This document shows, one piece after another, positions 1,494-27,573 of a stretch of 64,000 nt of DNA. Each line of letters begins with the position of its first letter. Position 1 is the stretch's first letter. The notes under the pieces were generated by a model, which was not told where the DNA came from, did no database searches, and saw only the letters and a program-made list of their open reading frames with translations. A program made the translations under genes and the position numbers. Source of the DNA: the human T2T-CHM13v2.0 reference genome, Homo sapiens; assembly GCF_009914755.1 (NCBI RefSeq), contig NC_060931.1. One strand, given 5' to 3'.

Positions 1494-2084
1494 CTCCTTA
1501 TAAACACTTTAATAGAAGAAATGCAAAGAAGATAGGGATTTTTATGGAATATTCCAACATAAAATCAGCAACTGATCTAAAACCTGAATTATCAAAAGGA
1601 ATATCAATTTCTAAAACCAGGGCAAGCTGACAAAATAAAGCTGAGCTATATAAAGGTATGTGTGCTGTAATACTCAACTTCAAGATGCTTTTGGATGAGC
1701 TCAATTCAACTAACATCAAAACAAAAGGAAATAAATTTTTCTACATTCGGAATATTTGTCACAAAACAAAGACCAACACTATCAGATAGGGCAATTCATG
1801 TTTTGTGTGTTTTAAATTTTTATTTTAAGAATAACTTTTAAATATTTGTAACAGCTTTCAATTTTTTAATTGATTTTATTTGGTGTTAGTGATACTTTTT
1901 TAGTTTTTTCTATCATCAGGTATAGATCATTTTTACATGTTATTAAAATACATAATCTCATCAAATGCAGTTAATATTGTATTTTTATTTTTATAGAAAA
2001 CCTCTGAAACTTTTAGCATAATTCTATCATCAAAAATGACACACCACTATTATTGTGGTCACTTATCAAAATTTGAAAACACAG

Positions 2085-2393
<309 letters not shown>

Positions 2394-2649
2394 TCACAAA
2401 AAAAAATAGGATGAATTCTGTTTTGAGAATTCCCAGGAATTTGTATTTTTTTTAACCTGAATCCTGAAGATATTTGTCAGGGATTTAGAAACACTATAAA
2501 AGGCAAATACTGTCCCAATTACCTTATTAACAAAGACTTTTTCTTTTTCAATGATCAAGACTTAATCAAAATTGTTTTTATCTCTTCAGTTTATATGTCC
2601 AGACTTACTTGGTTATTACAGGCACAGTGATGCAGTGAAATCATGACCT

Positions 2650-2960
2650 ATACCTAAACAGCCTGAAAATATTCAGCCTATAAAAGAAAAGACTTAGGTG
2701 AGAATTTAATAGCTGTCCTCATAAACTTCGAGAGCTCTCCTGAACAAGAGGGATTGCATTTGTTCTGTATGACCCAAGAGGAAAGAATTAGGATAAATGA
2801 GATGAAGTTACAGGAAAGAAAATTTTGACTTACTATATATATCCACTTTCTAGCAACTAGAGAATTCTGAAATGAGAGCAGACTCCCTCAAGCAATAGTG
2901 ATTTCTTGTCAAGGTAAAAGGCTGGACGACCATTTATCGGGGATATTATCAAAAAGACTC
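2650..2960 (+). mobile_element. L3/CR1 LINE 3' fragment
   Basis: ttcagcct...agacttag...tttgttctgtatgacccaagagg...gaagttacagga follows the CR1 ORF2 C-terminal pattern. Confidence 0.65.
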
Positions 2961-4927
2961 AGTGTTTGTGATTTTTTTTTTTTGGTGTGTATCATCTCAT
3001 TTTGTTCTCCAAGTGACACACATAGAAAATGTATTTAAATGGCTATGTATGAATGAAAATAGTAAAGTTCAGAGGGTATATTAGTTAGGATTCTTTGTAA
3101 ATTATAAAGCAATTTGAGCTAGCCTGAGCAAAAACAAAATACAGTATAAGAATAAATGGTATTTCACAGAACCTAAGGCCAGTGTAATGCAGCTGTCTCT
3201 AGGGTCGGACTGAGGCCAAAGCTCTCTCTCTCTCTGTATCTTCACCCTGTTTCTCTCTAACAACTGCTTTGTTCTCTATTTCTGCAGATGTATTTTCTAT
3301 GCTTCCCAACCACATAATGGGTAGGAGATATTTATGCCACAGATCCCCAATTTACATCTCTATCATTCAAGGGACCAGTCCAGAATGATTGGGTGCCTAA
3401 ATTATTCTGGACTTTATGCAGCCAATTAATCACATTATTCTCCCTTCTGAATGCTAAGCCAATTAAGAAATAGCCACAGTAAAACTGGATGGGATAATGT
3501 GGCTTAAACTTGAGGCCAAAATGTACTTTTCTGCAACTTTCCTTTGCCTTTGAATTGAATTCAGCCAGTCCAGGCAGATATCCAGATTGCATCTCAGGAG
3601 ATGGCCTGATCTGGCGGCCTGACCTGACGAGCTTATCAGATGGGAAAGACGTCCAGGAGGTGAGCACATTGCACTTGCACATATGCAAAAGGAGAATAAA
3701 GGATCTGGTCAGACATGTGCAATGACCCTTTACTGAAACCTACTAATTAAGTAAGTCACTCCACCAACTCCCTCAGGGTTGAGTTGCTGAAAAACGGAGA
3801 TAAGGGCAGAAACTTTCCTCATAACATTTTCAAAGATATTTTATACGATGGACTAAGGTAGGAATGTGCAGATGGGAAGAGAATAGCCTTCCCGCAATTA
3901 CCAATTCTTATTTCTGGAGATAGGGAAGTTAACTCACCCACTTTGAACCAGTTATTCATCTACGTCCAATCAATTATGGTTTTAGGAGAGTCTCTCGATG
4001 CATAAACAGCATGGCCAGGGGACAACCATTACAGATAGGACAGGCGATTTTTGGTAAAAGATGGCTAGACAGATACATGAATAAGTACACTCAGAATGCA
4101 TACACTTCTTCGTTTACATTATAAAGTTATTCTTGACTCATAATATCCAGCTACCTCACGTTCAAATGCAAATACACACAAGTACACACACACTCATTCA
4201 CACATGCTCTGCAGTGGAGGACTACCCAAGTAATGAGTGGATAATCCATTACATTAGGAAGTGATGTTGCCTTGAGGTCACTGCTCTTCCTGTGTAAAAT
4301 TTCTGGATGAGGTCCATTTCCTCCCCGAATCCAGTTTTAATTTTGTTCTCATTTTCTTAAAATTTAGAGATTAAATTACAAACGTAACCACTCTCAATAT
4401 ATCTAATATACAACACTTGGGGAAATGGCCATATAGAGAAATAGCGACGGAAAGAAAGCTCCACATAGTGGTCACTGGTCTGTGATTTATTCTGCTGGAC
4501 AGTGGCAGTTTGAAAAGCTTGAAAGAACAGGTGACTTATTTGGGCATAATTTTGACTCACTCCTTTGGCGTGTTTCTTGACCCTATAGTGAACTTTCAGT
4601 TTGTGTTATTTCTTCTTTGGATTGTGTCTGAAAATTTCCTAAGAATTGACTCTTCTGGTATGAGTCAACTATGGGTCCCTTTCACCAGATTTAGTATTTT
4701 TCACTGACATTTTCATTCTTATAAAACATTTCTGGTTGGCTCTCACATCCATTTTGGACTCCATTTGCTAAAATCCAGCACCACAAATCTTGTTAGGTCA
4801 TGCTCCAAATTGAATAGCCAGGACTTGTTCACTCTACTCAGGCGTATGTTCTGTTTTGTTCGTTTTTGAAGTAAGTCTGAAGGTTTCACCATCCATATGG
4901 TCTTTAATACATGAATTAAAAACTATA

Positions 4928-5247: not shown

Positions 5248-5565
5248 AAAAACTATGGCCTGATACGAGGTAGCTAGCATAACAGAACTCCTTCCTTTCT
5301 TATCAGCTATGGAAATATTGTCCCTATTCTCCTATTTTAGCTAGTGAGAAGGACTTTGGAAGGATGGGGGTGGGAGGTAGAAGTATGGTCAGTCTTTCTC
5401 CACTCTTCTGCTTCTTCCAGGATATTCCCATTCCTGTTTCCAGGATCTTGCGTTTTCTTGGTCCAGACATTTATTTATCCTAACTACAAAAAGGAGAGTC
5501 AACTCAGAACTTGACTACTGCAATTCACATTTCCTTGATTTATTTCTTCATCAGTACCTCAGCAA

Positions 5566-5859
5566 TTGATTGATTAATTGATTGAGACAGTCTTGCTGTG
5601 CTCACTGGAGTACAGTGGCATGATCTTTGCTCACTGCAACCTCCACCTCCCAGGTTCAAGCAATTCTCCCTTCCCCAGCCTCTCGAGTAGCTGGAATTAC
5701 AGGTGCCTGCCACCATGCCCAGCTAATTTTTGTATTTTTAAGAGAGACAGGCTTTCGCCATGTTGGCCAGTTTGGTCTTGAACTCCTGACCTCAAGTGAT
5801 CCGCCCGCCTTGGCCTCCCAAAGTGCTGGGATTACAGGCGTGAGCCACTGCACCCGGCC
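5566..5859 (-). mobile_element. Alu (AluS-type)
   Basis: Antisense dimer ending cacccggcc, (ATTG)n tail. Confidence 0.95.
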
Positions 5860-6689
5860 AGCAATCTATTTAGAAGCTCAGATTTTCTCTCTGTGCTTCC
5901 AGTCAAGCAAATCTAAGTTGGTTTTTTTCTTCTGCACCTTATACTGACAGCTACAAAAAATAGATATATAGTAATATTTTCTACCAAGGCCCCCCATGGC
6001 TTGGTGGAGAATGATCTGAGATGTAAGAGACAATGAGCAGGTTTTCCTACTTACTTCAATATTGCAGAAAGACTGTAAGTTTCTATCCTAAGATTGGGGT
6101 GGTAGGTGGGAGTGTGAGGCTCCTCCCAATCTGACACCTGCCTTAACTTCACTCATTTTATATTTTCTGATTAAGAATCTGTTACTCCGAACCCTATCAC
6201 AGGTAGCACTTTGTATATTAAATAAGATTCTCTGTTGCCTTAAGCTGTATGCAACAGAAACTGTATCGAGCCAGCCTAAGCAAGAAAAGAATTTAAGAAT
6301 TCAGAAGGGCACTCAGGCCTAAGAAAGAGATAGAAAAGTTACCAGATCTTTCTTCATCTCTCATATCTTCTTCTCTCTGCATGTTTGCTTTATTTATTTA
6401 TTTTCTCTGAAGTTAGGCTTTCTCTGTTTCTCTTTCCACATACCAGGTAAGATCATGGTCACTCAGCAGCTTCCAACTTCATATGTCTTTTCTTTGAGAA
6501 ACCAAGGGTAGTATGCTAAAACCATTGTTGGTTTTTTTTCAGATATGTCCAGGGAGAAAATCTGGTTGACCAGTTTGTCCTTATAGTGAACCTTCATCAG
6601 TGGTGTGTGTTCAATATCAAAACATCTTTCTAATTATAAAGAATCTTCAGTTAGGTGAGCAGATATTTCATCTCCCCACCTTTTGGTTC

Positions 6690-7080
6690 CTAAAACAAAG
6701 ACATGTGACCCAAGTCCCACCAATATGATGTTTTTGCCTGGAACTTTATCAAGTGATACACACAATTTGGAATTTTTCTATGGCTGTGGCACCAATGGCA
6801 GTGGCTTCTGGTTCTGGTGGCAGTAGTGGCTTCCAGCATCTGATGATACAGTGGTGACTGCTCGGCAAAGACAGCAGTCATGTCCTAACCAGGTTCTTTC
6901 TGCAGCATAATTTTAAATGTCCTGAGTTATGGCCTCCCTTAATTATTGCTCATTTCTTTCCAAGCCCAATCTTCAGTTCTTCTCATTGATTCTGTGAGCG
7001 TTCCTAAACTCTTCTAATAATGTTTTTTTTCCTCAAATATACCAGAATGATTTTATGTTGTTTACAACTAAGAACTTGCC
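6690..7080 (+). mobile_element. Old MaLR LTR fragment (MLT1 I-L group)
   Basis: 3' end resembling aataa...ccagaatgattttatgttgtttacaactaagaac. Confidence 0.45.
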
Positions 7081-8399
7081 TATATTCTAATGAGCTAAAC
7101 CAGTGGGTAGGGGCCTTGTAGAGCAAACCTGATTGTCAGAGGTCTACCCCTGTGAACAGGAAGAACAGTTCCCAGAGAAGACAGAATCAGTGGACATCCC
7201 AATAAGTGTCTTTTTGCATTAATATTGGAAAAGTTGTCCAAGACCATAGAAGAGCTGAATATCAGAACTTTAAGAAGAATCTGCACATCTCACTACTCAA
7301 TATAGGATTTATTCCTTTGTCCCAAGGATTAATTTTAATTCTTGAATTAATAATGGATGGGGATACCTAAGGTTATTATAGAAAGGCCAACATAAGCCCT
7401 TCACAATCTCAATAATTTGCTATTTCACCAAACTGAAAAACCTATTTCAAAAAAGAAAAGGCTGAATTCAATTAAACAACCTGGTTCTTTCAAAATAACT
7501 GGTTACCTAATTAAACCTTACTATTGCCTTAAACTTTGTAAACATATCTTAAACACTACTATGCTAAGATGGGGCAGAGGAATGAATTACTGATAAAATT
7601 CATAGTTAATTGAAAATGATATCAAAAACATTTTAATACTTTTCACCACATAATAAAATAAAAACTGTGTGATTTGAGTTTTTATCTCCTTTTATGGGCC
7701 TGTTTAATTTCTGTAAAGGAGCTTTGAAATTAAGCAAAATAGAAAGGGAAATAGTAATTTGGATAATCAGTCCCAAATAAACAAGAATTGCTAATTGCAT
7801 TTCTTGTACACAACTAGGAGTAAATTCAAAAACTGAAAGTAAATTGGACATGATGCTCAGAGAGTATCCTTGAGCATGAGTAACTAAAATTAACCAGAAT
7901 TTTAAATAAACTGGGGACTCCTAGACTTCTGAAGACATGAATGAGGCTATTAGAACTCTCTTTCTCCTACTCATCCATTAGCAATGTCGGGAACAGTTCA
8001 TAAAAGATTAATGTTTAAATGCTTAAGAATATATATTTGAATACCTTGAAAACACCAAGCAATGCTTTTTAAATTAATTGATAAGTCATTTTATACTTGT
8101 GATGTAGACTTAGACTTTTTTGTAGTAACAAGCCAGAAAACATCTATCCTTCTGAGAGATAATATGTGAAAGAATTGTAGAAGAAATGAGAAAGATGATT
8201 AGTAATCCTGTATTGCTTCTTGAGACAGCAATTCTCTCGTAAGTGGAAACTTAGGCAAGCATCAGTGATGAGAAATAGATACATTTTACTCTTTACTTCA
8301 TGGTTGAGAAGTGCCTGTAATTCACCTTTCAAATAAGAGGCAACATGTATAGCATAATCCCACAGTATTATGAAATTTTGGAGGTGAAAGGGACCTTGA

Positions 8400-25029: not shown

Positions 25030-25358
<329 letters not shown>

Positions 25359-25385: not shown

Positions 25386-27573
25386 TAGAGGTCAGCAAAC
25401 TTTTTTCATTAACAGAGAGTAAAATATGTTCTGCTTTCCATTCCATACACTCTCACACAACTAATCAACTCTGCTGTTGCAGTACAAAAGCAGCCATAGA
25501 CAATACAAAAACAAATAGGGGTGGCTGTGTTCCGATAAAATTTTCTTTACAGGCCTCTGCCTCTGCCTCTGCCTCTGCCTCTGCCTCTCCCTCTCCCCTC
25601 TCCCCTCTCCCCTCTCCCCTCTCCCCTCTCCCTCTCGGTCTCCCTCTCCCTCTCTTTCCACGGTCTCCCTCTGATGCCGAGCCGAAGCTGGACTGTACTG
25701 CTGCCATCTCGGCTCACTGCAGCCTCCCTGCCTGATTCTCCTGCCTCAGCCTGCCGAGTGCCTGCGATTGCGGGCGCGCGCCACCACGCCTGACTGGTTT
25801 TCGTACTTTTTTGGTGGAGACGGGGTTTCGCTGTGTTGGCCGGGCTGGTCTCCAGCTCCTAGCCGTGGGTGGTCCGCCAGCCTTGGCCTCCCAGGGTGCC
25901 GGGATTGCAGACGGAGTCTGGTTCGCTTGGTGCTCGGTGGTGCCCAGGCTGGAGTGCAGTGGCGTGGTCTCGGCTCGCTGCAGCCTCCATCTCCCGGCCG
26001 CCTGCCTTGGCCGCCCAGAGTGCCGAGATTGCAGCCTCTGCCCGGCCTCCACCCCGTCTGGGAGGTGGGGAGCGTCTCTGCCTGGCCGCCCATCGTCTGG
26101 GACGTGGGGAGCCCCTCTGCCTGGCTGCCCAGTCTGGAGGGTGGGGAGCATCTCTGCCCGGCCGCCATCCCGTCTGGGAGGTGGGGAGCGCCTCTTCCCG
26201 GCAGCCATCCCATCTGGGAGGTGGGGAGCGTCTCTGCCCGGCCGCCCATCGTCTGAGATGTGGGGAGCGCCTCTGCCCCGCCGCCCCGTCTGGGATGTGA
26301 GGAGCGCCTCTGCCCGGCTGCGACCCCGTCTGGGAGGTGGGGAGCGTCTCTGCCCAGCCGCCCCGTCTGAGAGGTGAGGGGACCCTCCGCCCGGCAGCCG
26401 CCCCGTCTGAGAGGTGAGGAGTCCCTCTGCCCGGCAGCCACCCCGTCTGGGAAGTGAGGAGTGTCTCCGCCCGGCAGCCGCCCCGTCCAGGAGGGAGGTG
26501 GGGGGGTCAGCCCCCCGCCCAGCCAGCCGCCCCATCCGGGAGGGAGGTGGGGGGGTCAGCCCCACGTCCGGGAGGGAGGTGGGGGGGGTCAGCCCCCCGC
26601 CCGGCCAGCCGCCCCGTCTGGGAGGGAGGTGGGGTCAGCCCCCCGCCCGGCCAGCCGCCCCGTCCGGGAGGTGAGGGGCGCCTCTGCCCAGCCGCCCCTA
26701 CTGGGAAGTGAGGAGCCCCTCTGCCGGGCCAGCCACCCCGTCCGGGAGGGAGGTGGGGGGCTCAGCCCCCCGCCCGGCCAGCCGACCAGTCCGGGAGGGA
26801 AGTGGGGGGATCAGCACCCCGCCCGGCCAGCCGCCCCGTCCGGGAGGGAGGTGGGGGGGTCAGCCCCCCGCCCGGCCAGCCGCCCCGTCCGGGAGGTGAG
26901 GGGCGCCTCTGCCCGGCCACCCCTACTAGGAAGTGAGGAGCCCCTCTGCCCAGCCACCACCTCGTCTGGGAGGTGTACCCAACAGCTCATTGAGAACGGG
27001 CCGGGATGACAATGGCGGTTTTGTGGAATAGAAAGGGGGGAAAGGTGGGGAAAAGATTGAGAAATCGGATGGTTGCCGTGTCTGTGTAGAAAGAAGTAGA
27101 CATGGGAGACTTTTCATTTTGTTCTGTACTAAGATAAATTCTTCTGCCTTGGGATCCTGTTGATCGGTGACCTTACCCCCAACCCTGTGCTCTCTGAAAC
27201 ATGTGCTGTGTCCACTCAGGGTTAAATGGATTAAGGGCGGTGCAAGATGTGCTTTGTTAAACAGATGCTTGAAGGCAGCATGCTCGTTAAGAATCATCAC
27301 CACTCCCTAATCTCAAGTACCCAGGGACACAAACACTGCGGAAGGCCGCAGGGTCCTCTGCCTAGGAAAACCAGAGACCTTTGTTCACTTGTTTATCTGC
27401 CAACCTTCCCTCCACTATTGTCCTATGACCCTGCCAAATCCCCCTCTGCGAGAAACACCCAAGAATGATCAATAAAAAAAATAAAAATTAAAAAAAAAAA
27501 GTTAAAAAAAAAAATTTTTCTTTACAATAACAGCATAAAACTTTGGCTTCAGGTCACAGTTTGTTGACCCCTA
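25386..27573. mobile_element. MER58A (hAT-Charlie MITE) split by the SVA
   Basis: gaggtcagcaaactt...aaagcagccatagacaatac...ggctgtgttccgataaaa, resuming as cagtttgttgacccct. Confidence 0.85.
25552..27510 (+). mobile_element. Full-length SVA (D-F lineage)
   Basis: Hexamer head 25552-~25655, Alu-like domain to ~26030, GC-rich VNTR to ~26975, SINE-R with AATAAA at 27471, A-tail; TSD aaaattttctttaca (25537-25551) vs aaaatttttctttaca (27511-27526). Confidence 0.98.

What the first reader, a model, noticed from the sequence alone, without database searches (positions are those of the whole stretch)
25722..26413. SVA with clustered sense-strand A-to-G hypermutation: candidate ADAR editing fossilised in DNA
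Seen: the Alu-like domain reads ctgcaGcc (25722), tgcGggc (25772), taGccgtgGgtgGtcc (25862/68/72), ttcGcttGgtgctcGGtgg (25925/29/36/37), gtgGtctc (25967), gcaGcc (25983), cccGgcc (25996) and ccaGag (26018). Several of these are A in the antisense Alus of this same window (ctgcaacc, gtgatcc, gatctc, cccaaag), so A is ancestral there; the rest rely on the SVA consensus as I recall it. The first VNTR units read gggaggtggggagc, while later units keep gggaagtgaggag (26449, 26703). That gives roughly 15 changes in the Alu-like domain and 15 in the 5' VNTR, then almost none. Established: ADAR A-to-I editing of dsRNA is read as G by reverse transcriptase; APOBEC3 editing and CpG decay give G-to-A or C-to-T instead. 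Inference: the structured 5' part of the SVA RNA (this copy or its source element) was hyper-edited and then retrotransposed, creating new CpGs and G-runs. Caveats: the context is mixed (GAA keeps its first A as ADAR predicts, but TGAG/TGAT sites are changed despite a 5' G), and the VNTR changes could reflect unit homogenisation.
Basis: partly seen in the sequence, partly recalled or inferred. Interest (0 to 1): 0.85.

Follow-up and report, generated by a model that had tools for sequence, protein, structure and literature searches.

The report
SVA copy bearing fossil RNA-editing scars
A young SVA retrotransposon on human chromosome 7 has about a third of the adenines in its first 700 bases turned into guanines on one strand only, as expected if its RNA was heavily edited by an ADAR-type enzyme before being copied back into DNA, and at least seven other SVA copies in the same genome show the same kind of scar.

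Summary
Window 25552-27514 is a full-length SVA on the + strand with target-site duplications.

Against its three closest full-length relatives, the tract 25722-26413 has 34 of 97 adenines changed to G and 0 of 136 thymines changed to C. The other 207 adenines of the element show no A>G (Fisher p 2e-15 and 1e-19).

The closest relatives share an unusual "GTT" tail and carry none of these changes, so this was one burst on this copy's own branch.

The 5' neighbour of changed adenines follows the ADAR order: A 12/13, T 2/4, C 8/30, G 11/48.

Probes from this copy found seven more SVA copies with 13-17 A>G in the Alu-like domain. They sit on separate branches of a SINE-R tree, so they are independent events. 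In two of them the changes reach the SINE-R.

Folding tests do not support an intrinsic SVA hairpin as the substrate. A duplex with antisense SVA RNA is my inference.

Eight literature searches found no report of this.

The parts
25537..25551 (.). 5' target-site duplication (aaaattttctttaca)
   Evidence: Read directly. It repeats at 27511-27526 with one extra t.
25552..27514 (+). Full-length SVA retrotransposon
   Evidence: The domain order is read. It is 93-95% identical over the Alu-like domain to 29 other genomic copies, and the SINE-R is up to 99.8% identical.
25552..25654 (+). 5' hexamer-type repeat (GG, then CCTCTG and CCCTCT units)
   Evidence: TRF array 25554-25654. The CCTCTG variant units are shared with relatives L006 and L020. 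The region holds no A, so it is uninformative for editing.
25655..26033 (+). Alu-like domain (two antisense Alu-derived pieces with a non-Alu insert at about 25914-25946)
   Evidence: About 76% identical to the window's antisense Alu over 25735-25913 and 25947-25997. It has 53 ancestral A and 87 T, with 16 A>G and 0 T>C.
25722..26413 (+). Hyper-mutated tract: 32-34 sense-strand A>G
   Evidence: 34/97 A>G and 0/136 T>C against the 2-of-3 state of the closest relatives. Against L076 alone there are 36 A>G, all inside these bounds, of which 4 look private to L076. The 5' neighbour split is A 12/13, T 2/4, C 8/30, G 11/48.
26034..26959 (+). VNTR; only the first ten or so units (to 26413) are changed
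   Evidence: TRF arrays. Unit-by-unit alignment to relatives. 0/58 A>G in 26414-26959.
26960..27470 (+). SINE-R domain, unchanged
   Evidence: 0/139 A>G. No private change against L076 and L080. 100% identical over 26835-27514 to a truncated copy on contig 4.
27471..27514 (+). Poly(A) signal and A-rich tail with internal T, TT and GTT
   Evidence: The exact tail occurs in only 2 places in the genome. The A(9-11) GTT A(n) form is shared with L076, L069 and L077.
27511..27526 (.). 3' target-site duplication (aaaatttttctttaca)
   Evidence: Read directly.

Best explanation
The RNA that gave rise to this SVA insertion was hyper-edited by an ADAR-type adenosine deaminase. The edited segment was about 690 nt: most of the Alu-like domain plus the first ten or so VNTR units. 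The LINE-1 reverse transcriptase read each inosine as G, so the edits became fixed in DNA at insertion.

Shown here:
- a one-strand, one-class (A>G) burst confined to a tract inside the element
- its absence from the closest relatives
- an ADAR-like 5'-neighbour order
- recurrence of the same kind of burst, at overlapping sites, in at least seven other SVA copies on separate branches

Inferred:
- the enzyme
- the timing, in the RNA before reverse transcription. The sense-strand polarity argues for this.
- the double-stranded substrate. I think it was a duplex between sense SVA RNA and antisense SVA sequence, from an inverted neighbouring SVA in a read-through transcript or from an antisense SVA inside another transcript. 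An intrinsic SVA hairpin or a sense Alu partner seems less likely.
For: (a) Spectrum and clustering. The tract has 34/97 A>G and 0/136 T>C, and the remaining 207 A of the element show 0 A>G (p 2e-15 and 1e-19).

(b) Direction. A is the state in 23-29 of 29 copies and in all three closest relatives (for L076 and L069).

(c) One burst. 14 genomic copies share the marker at 27402. L076, L069 and L077 also share the A(9-11)GTT tail, and L076 is 99.8% identical in the SINE-R. Those relatives (L018, L006, L017) have 0 A>G in the Alu-like domain. This copy has no private SINE-R change.

(d) Neighbour preference. In this copy the 5' neighbour split is A 12/13, T 2/4, C 8/30, G 11/48; A/T against C/G gives p 1.3e-5. 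In the seven other hypermutated copies, with probe sites excluded, it is A 27/38, T 12/23, C 37/132, G 16/122 (p 2.8e-10, and C against G p 0.005). This is the published ADAR order U~A > C > G, which I recall from Polson and Bass 1994 and Lehmann and Bass 2000; I did not read those papers here.

(e) Recurrence. Alu-like A>G / T>C counts are L002 17/0, L003 15/0, L034 15/1, L032 13/1, L064 13/3, L068 17/1 and L086 16/1. Pooled over the eight copies this is 122/382 A>G against 7/618 T>C.

(f) Independence. On a SINE-R tree of 33 rows, the 6 hypermutated copies that could be placed need 6 changes of state, and starred branches force at least 5. Their nearest neighbours are unedited.

(g) Extent differs by event. 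SINE-R A>G / T>C is 15/0 in L068 and 7/1 in L003, but 0, 1/3 and 1/1 in L001, L002 and L034. This fits partners of different length and argues against an Alu partner.

(h) Intensity. 92% conversion at 5'-A sites is far above any polymerase error rate I know of (inference).
Against: - No 3'-G preference is seen: pooled 35/132 for 3' G against 31/86 for 3' C, and p 0.2 in this copy.
- 5'-G sites are still changed at 23%.
- Edited adenines are not enriched in predicted paired positions of unedited relatives: 0.55 against 0.47, p 0.24, and 0.51 against 0.47, p 0.46. Spearman rho is -0.31 to -0.34 for the Alu-like domain alone and about 0 for 1-kb and full-length folds.
- No complementary partner and no source locus were identified. 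The relatives L076, L069 and L077 show no inverted SVA in the 1-1.5 kb of flank that I hold.
- A patch, 25938-25966, is never changed in any of 8 copies, which nearest-neighbour rules alone do not explain.
- Nine non-A>G changes also lie in the tract, against 1 in the SINE-R (p 0.05).
- The seven other copies were found with probes taken from this copy's G variants, so overlap and hot-spot statistics are biased upward.
- No ape or pangenome data and no RNA data were available.
Confidence: 0.8

Rival explanations
1. DNA-level, strand-biased misincorporation. One route is an error-prone polymerase of the pol-eta type, which mispairs dG opposite template T at WA motifs, making the second (sense) strand during target-primed reverse transcription or repair. 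Another is LINE-1 reverse transcriptase errors under a nucleotide-pool imbalance.
For: A 5' A/T preference (14/17 against 19/78) is also what a WA-motif polymerase would give. Nine other substitutions lie in the same tract. No dsRNA partner was found.
Against: 19 of the 33 changed sites counted have a 5' C or G, with C above G as for ADAR (pooled 37/132 against 16/122, p 0.005). 12 of 13 AA sites are converted, far above known polymerase error rates (recalled, not tested). The tract ends inside the element, with 0/197 A>G in the 3' 1.1 kb, although both strands of the whole insert are synthesised in the same event.
Confidence: 0.07
2. This copy was not itself edited. Its 5' third was acquired from another, already G-rich SVA, either by gene conversion or by template switching between two SVA RNAs during reverse transcription. 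The VNTR changes are unit homogenisation towards the native TGGGGAGC unit.
For: L002 shares 10 of the 16 Alu-like sites and 6 of the 16 VNTR sites, and L003 shares 10 of 16 Alu-like sites. The overlap exceeds a uniform expectation (10 against 5.1 and 4.5). A native unit with GTGGGGAGC exists at about 26260. Non-A>G changes are also concentrated in the tract.
Against: No genomic copy carries this set of changes. The best non-self match over the Alu-like domain is 95%, and the probes found no copy with the full pattern. L002 and L003 share none of this copy's non-A>G changes except 25884 and 25893 in L003. The 5' hexamer variant is that of this copy's own relatives. Much of the overlap is explained by the 5'-neighbour class (expected 7.1 and 6.1). 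Even if true, the donor would still need an A>G burst.
Confidence: 0.07
3. These are ordinary subfamily-diagnostic or ancestral G's that accumulated stepwise along the SVA phylogeny.
For: 25972 G is the Alu-type state and is present in 7 of 29 copies, and 25722 G is present in 6 of 29. A small older lineage (L035, L038, L039, L042) shares G at 25936/25937 and a few other sites.
Against: The closest relatives have none of the changes. 27 of 29 sampled copies have 0-3 A>G. There are 0 T>C among 136 T. Only 12 places in the genome hold the GG variant at 25936/25937.
Confidence: 0.03
4. An assembly or sequencing artefact in this haploid assembly.
For: None was found. Repeats can be mis-assembled.
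Against: The element has clean target-site duplications and unique flanks. The changes are of one class on one strand and follow a neighbour rule. Similar tracts occur in seven other loci with different patterns.
Confidence: 0.01

Closest known systems
ADAR-type A-to-G hypermutation of retroviral genomes (avian retroviruses, and LCMV among RNA viruses)
   Same: Both show dense A>G changes on the genomic-sense strand, read through by a reverse transcriptase or replicase and fixed in the copy. One such title (Zahn et al. 2007, LCMV) appears in the reference list of PMC5224506. The avian retrovirus cases are recalled from memory.
   Different: Here the template is a non-autonomous human composite retrotransposon mobilised by LINE-1, and the product is a germline, inherited insertion. 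No viral replication is involved.
APOBEC3 'DNA editing' fossils in endogenous retroelements (Carmi et al. 2011; Knisbacher and Levanon 2016, PMC4866542; Zaranek et al. 2010, PMC2873906)
   Same: The logic is the same: a host deaminase hypermutates a retroelement intermediate, the copy still integrates, and the cluster is found by comparing it with relatives and checking direction and strand bias. I read passages of these papers.
   Different: Those are G>A clusters from C deamination of minus-strand cDNA in GG/GA context. This tract has 2 G>A and 34 A>G. The step affected is the RNA, not the cDNA.
ADAR hyper-editing of inverted Alu repeats in human transcripts (Porath et al. 2014, PMC4365171; reviews PMC4982230, PMC4859970)
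   Same: Both show clustered A-to-I in long duplexes made by oppositely oriented repeats, with 5' G depleted. For PMC4365171 I saw only the search listing. For the two reviews I read passages.
   Different: That editing is seen in RNA only and is not inherited. The Alu-like domain here is only about 76% like an Alu. The hot spots 25925-25937 lie in the non-Alu insert, and the tract runs into the VNTR. An Alu partner is therefore unlikely.
ADAR1/ADAR2 restriction of LINE-1 retrotransposition (Orecchini et al. 2016, PMC5224506; ADAR2 paper PMC8677026)
   Same: ADAR proteins associate with the LINE-1 ribonucleoprotein that also mobilises SVA. I read passages of PMC5224506 and saw only the search listing for PMC8677026.
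   Different: That study found no editing in more than 2.5 kb of L1 RNA and concluded that restriction is editing-independent. Here editing is the visible outcome, and the element still inserted.

Membership tests
SVA composite retrotransposon | Domain order: CCCTCT-type hexamer repeat, Alu-like domain, GC-rich VNTR, SINE-R, poly(A) signal and tail | tested here: met
   Searches give the anatomy. Searches give 93-95% (Alu-like) and up to 99.8% (SINE-R) identity to other genomic copies. The domain names are from my own knowledge. No Dfam or RepeatMasker library was available, so the subfamily (A-F) is not assigned.
SVA composite retrotransposon | LINE-1-type insertion hallmarks: target-site duplication and an A-tail | tested here: met
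   A 15-16 nt duplication at 25537-25551 and 27511-27526, and a tail at 27471-27514.
ADAR (A-to-I) hyper-edited RNA footprint | Excess of A>G over T>C on one strand, clustered | tested here: met
   34/97 against 0/136 in the tract, and 0/207 elsewhere.
ADAR (A-to-I) hyper-edited RNA footprint | A is the unedited (ancestral) state | tested here: met
   The exception is 25972, where G is also common (7 of 29).
ADAR (A-to-I) hyper-edited RNA footprint | 5' neighbour preference U~A > C > G | tested here: met
   This copy: A 12/13, T 2/4, C 8/30, G 11/48. Seven other copies: A 27/38, T 12/23, C 37/132, G 16/122.
ADAR (A-to-I) hyper-edited RNA footprint | 3' neighbour G favoured | tested here: not met
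   This copy: 21/51 for 3' G against 12/44 for the rest, p 0.2. Pooled others: 3' G 35/132, no higher than 3' C 31/86.
ADAR (A-to-I) hyper-edited RNA footprint | A long double-stranded RNA substrate covering the edited tract | tested here: inconclusive
   Predicted intramolecular folds do not place the edited A's in stems. An Alu partner would give only about a 76% match and would miss the hot spots. An antisense-SVA partner is inferred from tracts that reach the VNTR and the SINE-R, but none was identified.
ADAR (A-to-I) hyper-edited RNA footprint | Dependence on ADAR1 or ADAR2 activity | not testable with these tools
   This needs RNA data or ADAR-null cells.
APOBEC3-edited retroelement | G>A clusters on the sense strand in GG/GA context | tested here: not met
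   There are 2 G>A in the tract against 34 A>G.
Pol-eta / somatic-hypermutation-like A:T mutagenesis | A>G largely restricted to WA motifs, at low per-site frequency | tested here: not met
   19 of 33 changed sites are not WA, and 12 of 13 AA sites are converted.

The most novel reading that the evidence does not exclude
ADAR hyper-editing of SVA RNA is a recurrent, heritable route of SVA diversification in the human germline. At least eight independent events are visible in one haploid genome, and they hit the same preferred adenines. The substrate is a sense-antisense SVA duplex of variable length. Edited copies stay mobile: the window copy, or a lost twin of it, fathered the 5'-truncated copy on contig 4 at 68.34 Mb, which is 100% identical over 680 bp and has the same tail. 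Editing would then be a source of new SVA variants with more G-runs and CpGs, not only a dead end.
Probability: 0.35. Interest if true: 0.8.

Novelty: new variant of a known kind. Interest (0 to 1): 0.68.

Why it matters
Host deaminase scars in retroelements are well documented for APOBEC3 (G>A). For ADAR, and for elements mobilised by LINE-1, a 2016 review still said that such a role "has not yet been determined" for Alu (PMC4982230). A cell-culture study found no editing of L1 RNA (PMC5224506).

A clean, datable example of ADAR-type editing fixed in the germline, with unedited siblings for comparison, does three things:
- It shows that RNA editing can write itself into the genome in blocks of 30 or more substitutions at once.
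- It gives a set of preferred sites that can be looked for in SVA RNA.
- It gives a directional marker (unedited parent to edited offspring) for tracing SVA source elements.

The burst also changed the element's sequence. In the tract, G3+ runs rose from 9 to 21, G4+ runs from 2 to 9, GC from about 66% to 70.7%, and CpG from 46-51 to 54. This might alter repressor binding, methylation or G-quadruplex potential; none of that was tested.

Tried and rejected
(1) Intrinsic fold as substrate. I ran RNAfold partition functions on unedited relatives (L006, L013, L004), for the Alu-like domain alone, for the 5' 1 kb and for the full length. Edited A's are not more paired. For the Alu-like domain alone the correlation is negative.

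(2) Sense Alu as partner. The match is only about 76%, and the hot spots 25925-25937 fall outside the Alu-homologous blocks.

(3) Finding the source element. A marker at 27402 gave 14 copies. The exact tail gave only this copy and the truncated contig-4 copy. Two copies with G at 26013 but A at 26018 (L059, L066) share none of the other checked markers, apart from T at 25884 in L066. No unedited element with all of this copy's private non-A>G changes was found.

(4) The inverted SVA pair on contig 4 (86.510-86.517 Mb) as a source. Its plus copy groups with two other copies and has 4 private SINE-R changes' worth of branch length, so it is probably not this copy's parent. Its minus copy is close to the mildly edited L033, but the dating is inconclusive.

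(5) An edited founder for the lineage L035, L038, L039 and L042. These have 4-7 A>G against 2-4 T>C relative to a reference from another subfamily, so there is no significant excess.

One paper id was not held. No Dfam consensus, ape genome or pangenome was available, so I could not name the subfamily, check the orthologous site or assess polymorphism.

(7) Genome-wide census. The count of eight hypermutated copies is therefore a lower bound, obtained with biased probes.
Full report
**What is there**

Window 25552-27514 (+ strand) is a full-length SVA. Its parts are:
- two G's followed by CCTCTG/CCCTCT repeats, to 25654
- an Alu-like domain, 25655-26033
- a VNTR, 26034 to about 26959
- a SINE-R, to about 27470
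- AATAAA at 27471 and an A-rich tail to 27514
- 15-16 nt target-site duplications on both sides (25537-25551 and 27511-27526)

No other SVA-like sequence lies in the window at E <= 1e-10. No gene is annotated there (hub note).

**Checking the observation**

I searched the window's own genome with the Alu-like domain (25660-26050). The search gave 5684 first-look candidates, of which 40 were scored, and 30 loci. The best non-self copies are only 93-95% identical.

Against the column majority of the 29 other copies, this copy differs at 22 columns of 25660-26050: 16 A>G, 0 T>C, 3 C>T, 1 G>A and 2 transversions. Twenty-seven of the 29 other copies have 0-3 A>G.

The first VNTR units align unit by unit with relatives. 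They add 16 well-supported A>G between 26064 and 26413.

The SINE-R has no A>G. Only two positions (26962, 27402) differ from at least half of the covering copies. Both turned out to be lineage markers shared with relatives.

**Closest relatives and the size of the burst**

The variant at 27402 is shared by 14 genomic copies. I fetched these elements. In the SINE-R they are 98.4-99.8% identical to this copy, with L076 differing at 1 of 549 positions.

Four of them also carry the same odd tail...AATT A(9-11) GTT A(n): L076, L069, L077 and the truncated L070. The Alu-like domains of L076, L069 and L077 are the loci L018, L006 and L017, and each has 0 A>G.

I took the state shared by at least two of these three as the reference:

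| Region | A>G | T>C | Other changes |
|---|---|---|---|
| 25655-25721 | 0/10 | - | none |
| Tract 25722-26413 | 34/97 | 0/136 | 9 |
| Rest of VNTR | 0/58 | - | not relevant here |
| SINE-R | 0/139 | - | 1 |

Fisher p is 2e-15 for A>G against T>C and 1e-19 for the tract against the rest.

In the three-way comparison this copy has no private SINE-R change. The changes therefore form one burst on the terminal branch of this copy, or of an unsampled immediate donor. They are not a stepwise series.

**Signature**

In the tract, the share of adenines changed depends on the 5' neighbour: A 12/13, T 2/4, C 8/30, G 11/48. A/T against C/G gives p 1.3e-5.

In the VNTR, AAG is changed 6/6, GAA 0/6 and GAG 7/21.

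There is no significant 3'-G preference (21/51 against 12/44, p 0.2). The 5' order matches what I recall for ADAR1 and ADAR2. The missing 3'-G preference does not.

**Other copies of the same kind**

I ran three exact or near-exact probes taken from this copy's G variants:
- 12 places.
- 12 places.
- 8 places.

Together with the similarity search, these led to seven more SVA copies with a strong one-sided excess in the Alu-like domain:

| Copy | A>G / T>C |
|---|---|
| L002 | 17/0 |
| L003 | 15/0 |
| L034 | 15/1 (5' truncated) |
| L032 | 13/1 (5' truncated) |
| L064 | 13/3 |
| L068 | 17/1 |
| L086 | 16/1 |

L033 is a milder case, with about 11 A>G against its close relative L071b.

Pooled over the eight copies, 122 of 382 adenine cells are G and 7 of 618 thymine cells are C. 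Leaving out this copy and the probe sites, the 5' neighbour order is again A 27/38, T 12/23, C 37/132, G 16/122 (p 2.8e-10 for A/T against C/G and 0.005 for C against G).

The site patterns are mosaic, not nested.

On an IQ-TREE of 33 SINE-R rows, the six hypermutated copies that could be placed need six changes of state, and well-supported branches force at least five. Each sits next to unedited copies. These are therefore independent events.

Overlap of this copy's sites with the others is 6-10 of 16. This is above a uniform expectation of 3.9-5.1 and is mostly explained by the 5'-neighbour class, which gives 5.1-7.1. Because of how the copies were found, the residual excess is not reliable.

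Some adenines are never changed in any of the 6-8 copies covering them. These include three in 25938-25966 and three in 26026-26033.

**Where the double strand came from**

Folding unedited relatives gives no support for an intrinsic SVA structure. Edited adenines are not more often paired (0.55 against 0.47, p 0.24; 0.51 against 0.47, p 0.46). Across sites, edit frequency correlates negatively with predicted pairing for the Alu-like domain alone (rho -0.31 to -0.34) and not at all for the 1-kb and full-length folds.

A sense Alu would match the Alu-like domain at only about 76%. It has no counterpart for 25914-25946, where the hot spots 25925-25937 lie.

The tract runs 380 nt into the VNTR in this copy. 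In other events it reaches the SINE-R: L068 has 15 A>G and 0 T>C there, and L003 has 7 and 1. L002 and L034 show no A>G excess there, at 1/3 and 1/1.

A partner that can cover any part of an SVA, over different lengths, is most simply antisense SVA sequence. This is inference; I did not find the partner.

Inverted SVA pairs do exist. On contig 4 at 86.510-86.517 Mb, two full-length SVAs lie tail to tail, 1.2 kb apart. One belongs to this copy's 27402 group. The other is the closest relative of the mildly edited L033. I could not show that either was a donor.

**Why RNA, and why ADAR**

The changes are on the strand that is the SVA transcript. Deamination of the cDNA would give T>C on this strand, and there are none.

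APOBEC-type G>A is nearly absent (2).

A WA-motif polymerase could mimic the A/T preference. It would not give the C > G order, the 19 of 33 non-WA sites, or 92% conversion at AA sites. It also would not stop inside the insert.

Biased gene conversion would raise A>G and T>C alike.

**Relatives of this copy**

A 5'-truncated SVA on contig 4 at 68.34 Mb (L070) has its own target-site duplication. It is 100% identical to window 26835-27514, including the tail up to GTT. Only these two places in the genome have that tail.

L070 lacks the edited part, so it cannot show whether it is an offspring of this copy or a sibling. Its full identity suggests that both are recent.

**Consequences for the element**

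In the tract, G3+ runs rise from 9 to 21 and G4+ runs from 2 to 9. GC rises from about 66% to 70.7%, and CpG from 46-51 to 54.

At 25928/25929, CA became TG. This is what an edit-created CpG followed by CpG decay would leave (inference).

**Literature**

Eight full-text searches found no paper that describes A>G-hypermutated SVA copies or ADAR-edited LINE-1-mobilised insertions in the germline. I read passages from these papers:
- PMC4859970
- PMC4982230
- PMC4866542
- PMC9706992
- PMC2873906
- PMC5974252
- PMC5224506

PMC4982230 states that a role of ADAR editing in Alu subfamily evolution "has not yet been determined". PMC5224506 reports no editing in more than 2.5 kb of L1 RNA.

The library lacks most subscription journals. 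One SVA review that I looked for by id was not held. I did not open any supplements. Prior description therefore cannot be excluded.

**Verdict**

The mechanism I commit to is ADAR-type hyper-editing of the SVA RNA in a duplex with antisense SVA sequence, followed by LINE-1-mediated insertion. My confidence is about 0.8 for RNA editing and about 0.5 for the nature of the partner.

Noticed in passing
L071 (G000 contig 4: 86,509,000-86,518,999); plus copy about 1618-4179, minus copy about 5391-8172 in locus coordinates: Two full-length SVAs lie tail to tail in inverted orientation, 1.2 kb apart. The plus copy belongs to the window copy's 27402 marker group. The minus copy is the closest relative (100/100 support) of the mildly A>G-changed copy L033. 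A read-through transcript here would fold into a long SVA hairpin.
   Followed up: partly
L070 (G000 contig 4: about 68,337,186-68,337,870): A 5'-truncated SVA of 680 bp with its own target-site duplication (GAAAACAGGGCCTAA). It is 100% identical to window 26835-27514, including the unusual tail. It is either an offspring or a sibling of the window copy.
   Followed up: partly
window 25866, 25893, 25928, 26013, 26048, 26150, 26319: Non-A>G changes private to this copy are concentrated in the edited tract: 9 in 692 bp against 1 in 519 bp of SINE-R (p 0.05). Several are CpG transitions. 25928 sits at a CpG that the neighbouring A>G would have created. It is unclear whether these arose in the donor, at reverse transcription of inosine-rich RNA, or after insertion.
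   Followed up: partly
window 25938-25966 and 26026-26033: The adenines in these patches are unchanged in all eight hypermutated SVA copies, although their neighbours (CAG, GAG, GAT) are changed elsewhere. This cold patch is not explained by nearest-neighbour rules.
   Followed up: no
L035, L038, L039, L042 (contigs 6, 9, 9, 20): A small, older-looking SVA lineage shares an 11-bp deletion in the Alu-like domain. It also shares G at the equivalents of 25879, 25911, 25936 and 25937. It might descend from a lightly edited founder, but there is no significant A>G excess.
   Followed up: partly
window 25068-25353: An Alu lies 200 bp upstream of the SVA, in the same (antisense, T-rich start) orientation as the Alu-like domain. 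It cannot pair with the Alu-like domain in a transcript of either strand.
   Followed up: yes
L018/L076 and L005 (contig 11 at 86,046,650 and contig 1 at 221,720,845): These two relatives carry a second copy of the first 42 nt of the Alu-like domain about 115 bp upstream of the normal one. This is a short internal 5' duplication.
   Followed up: no
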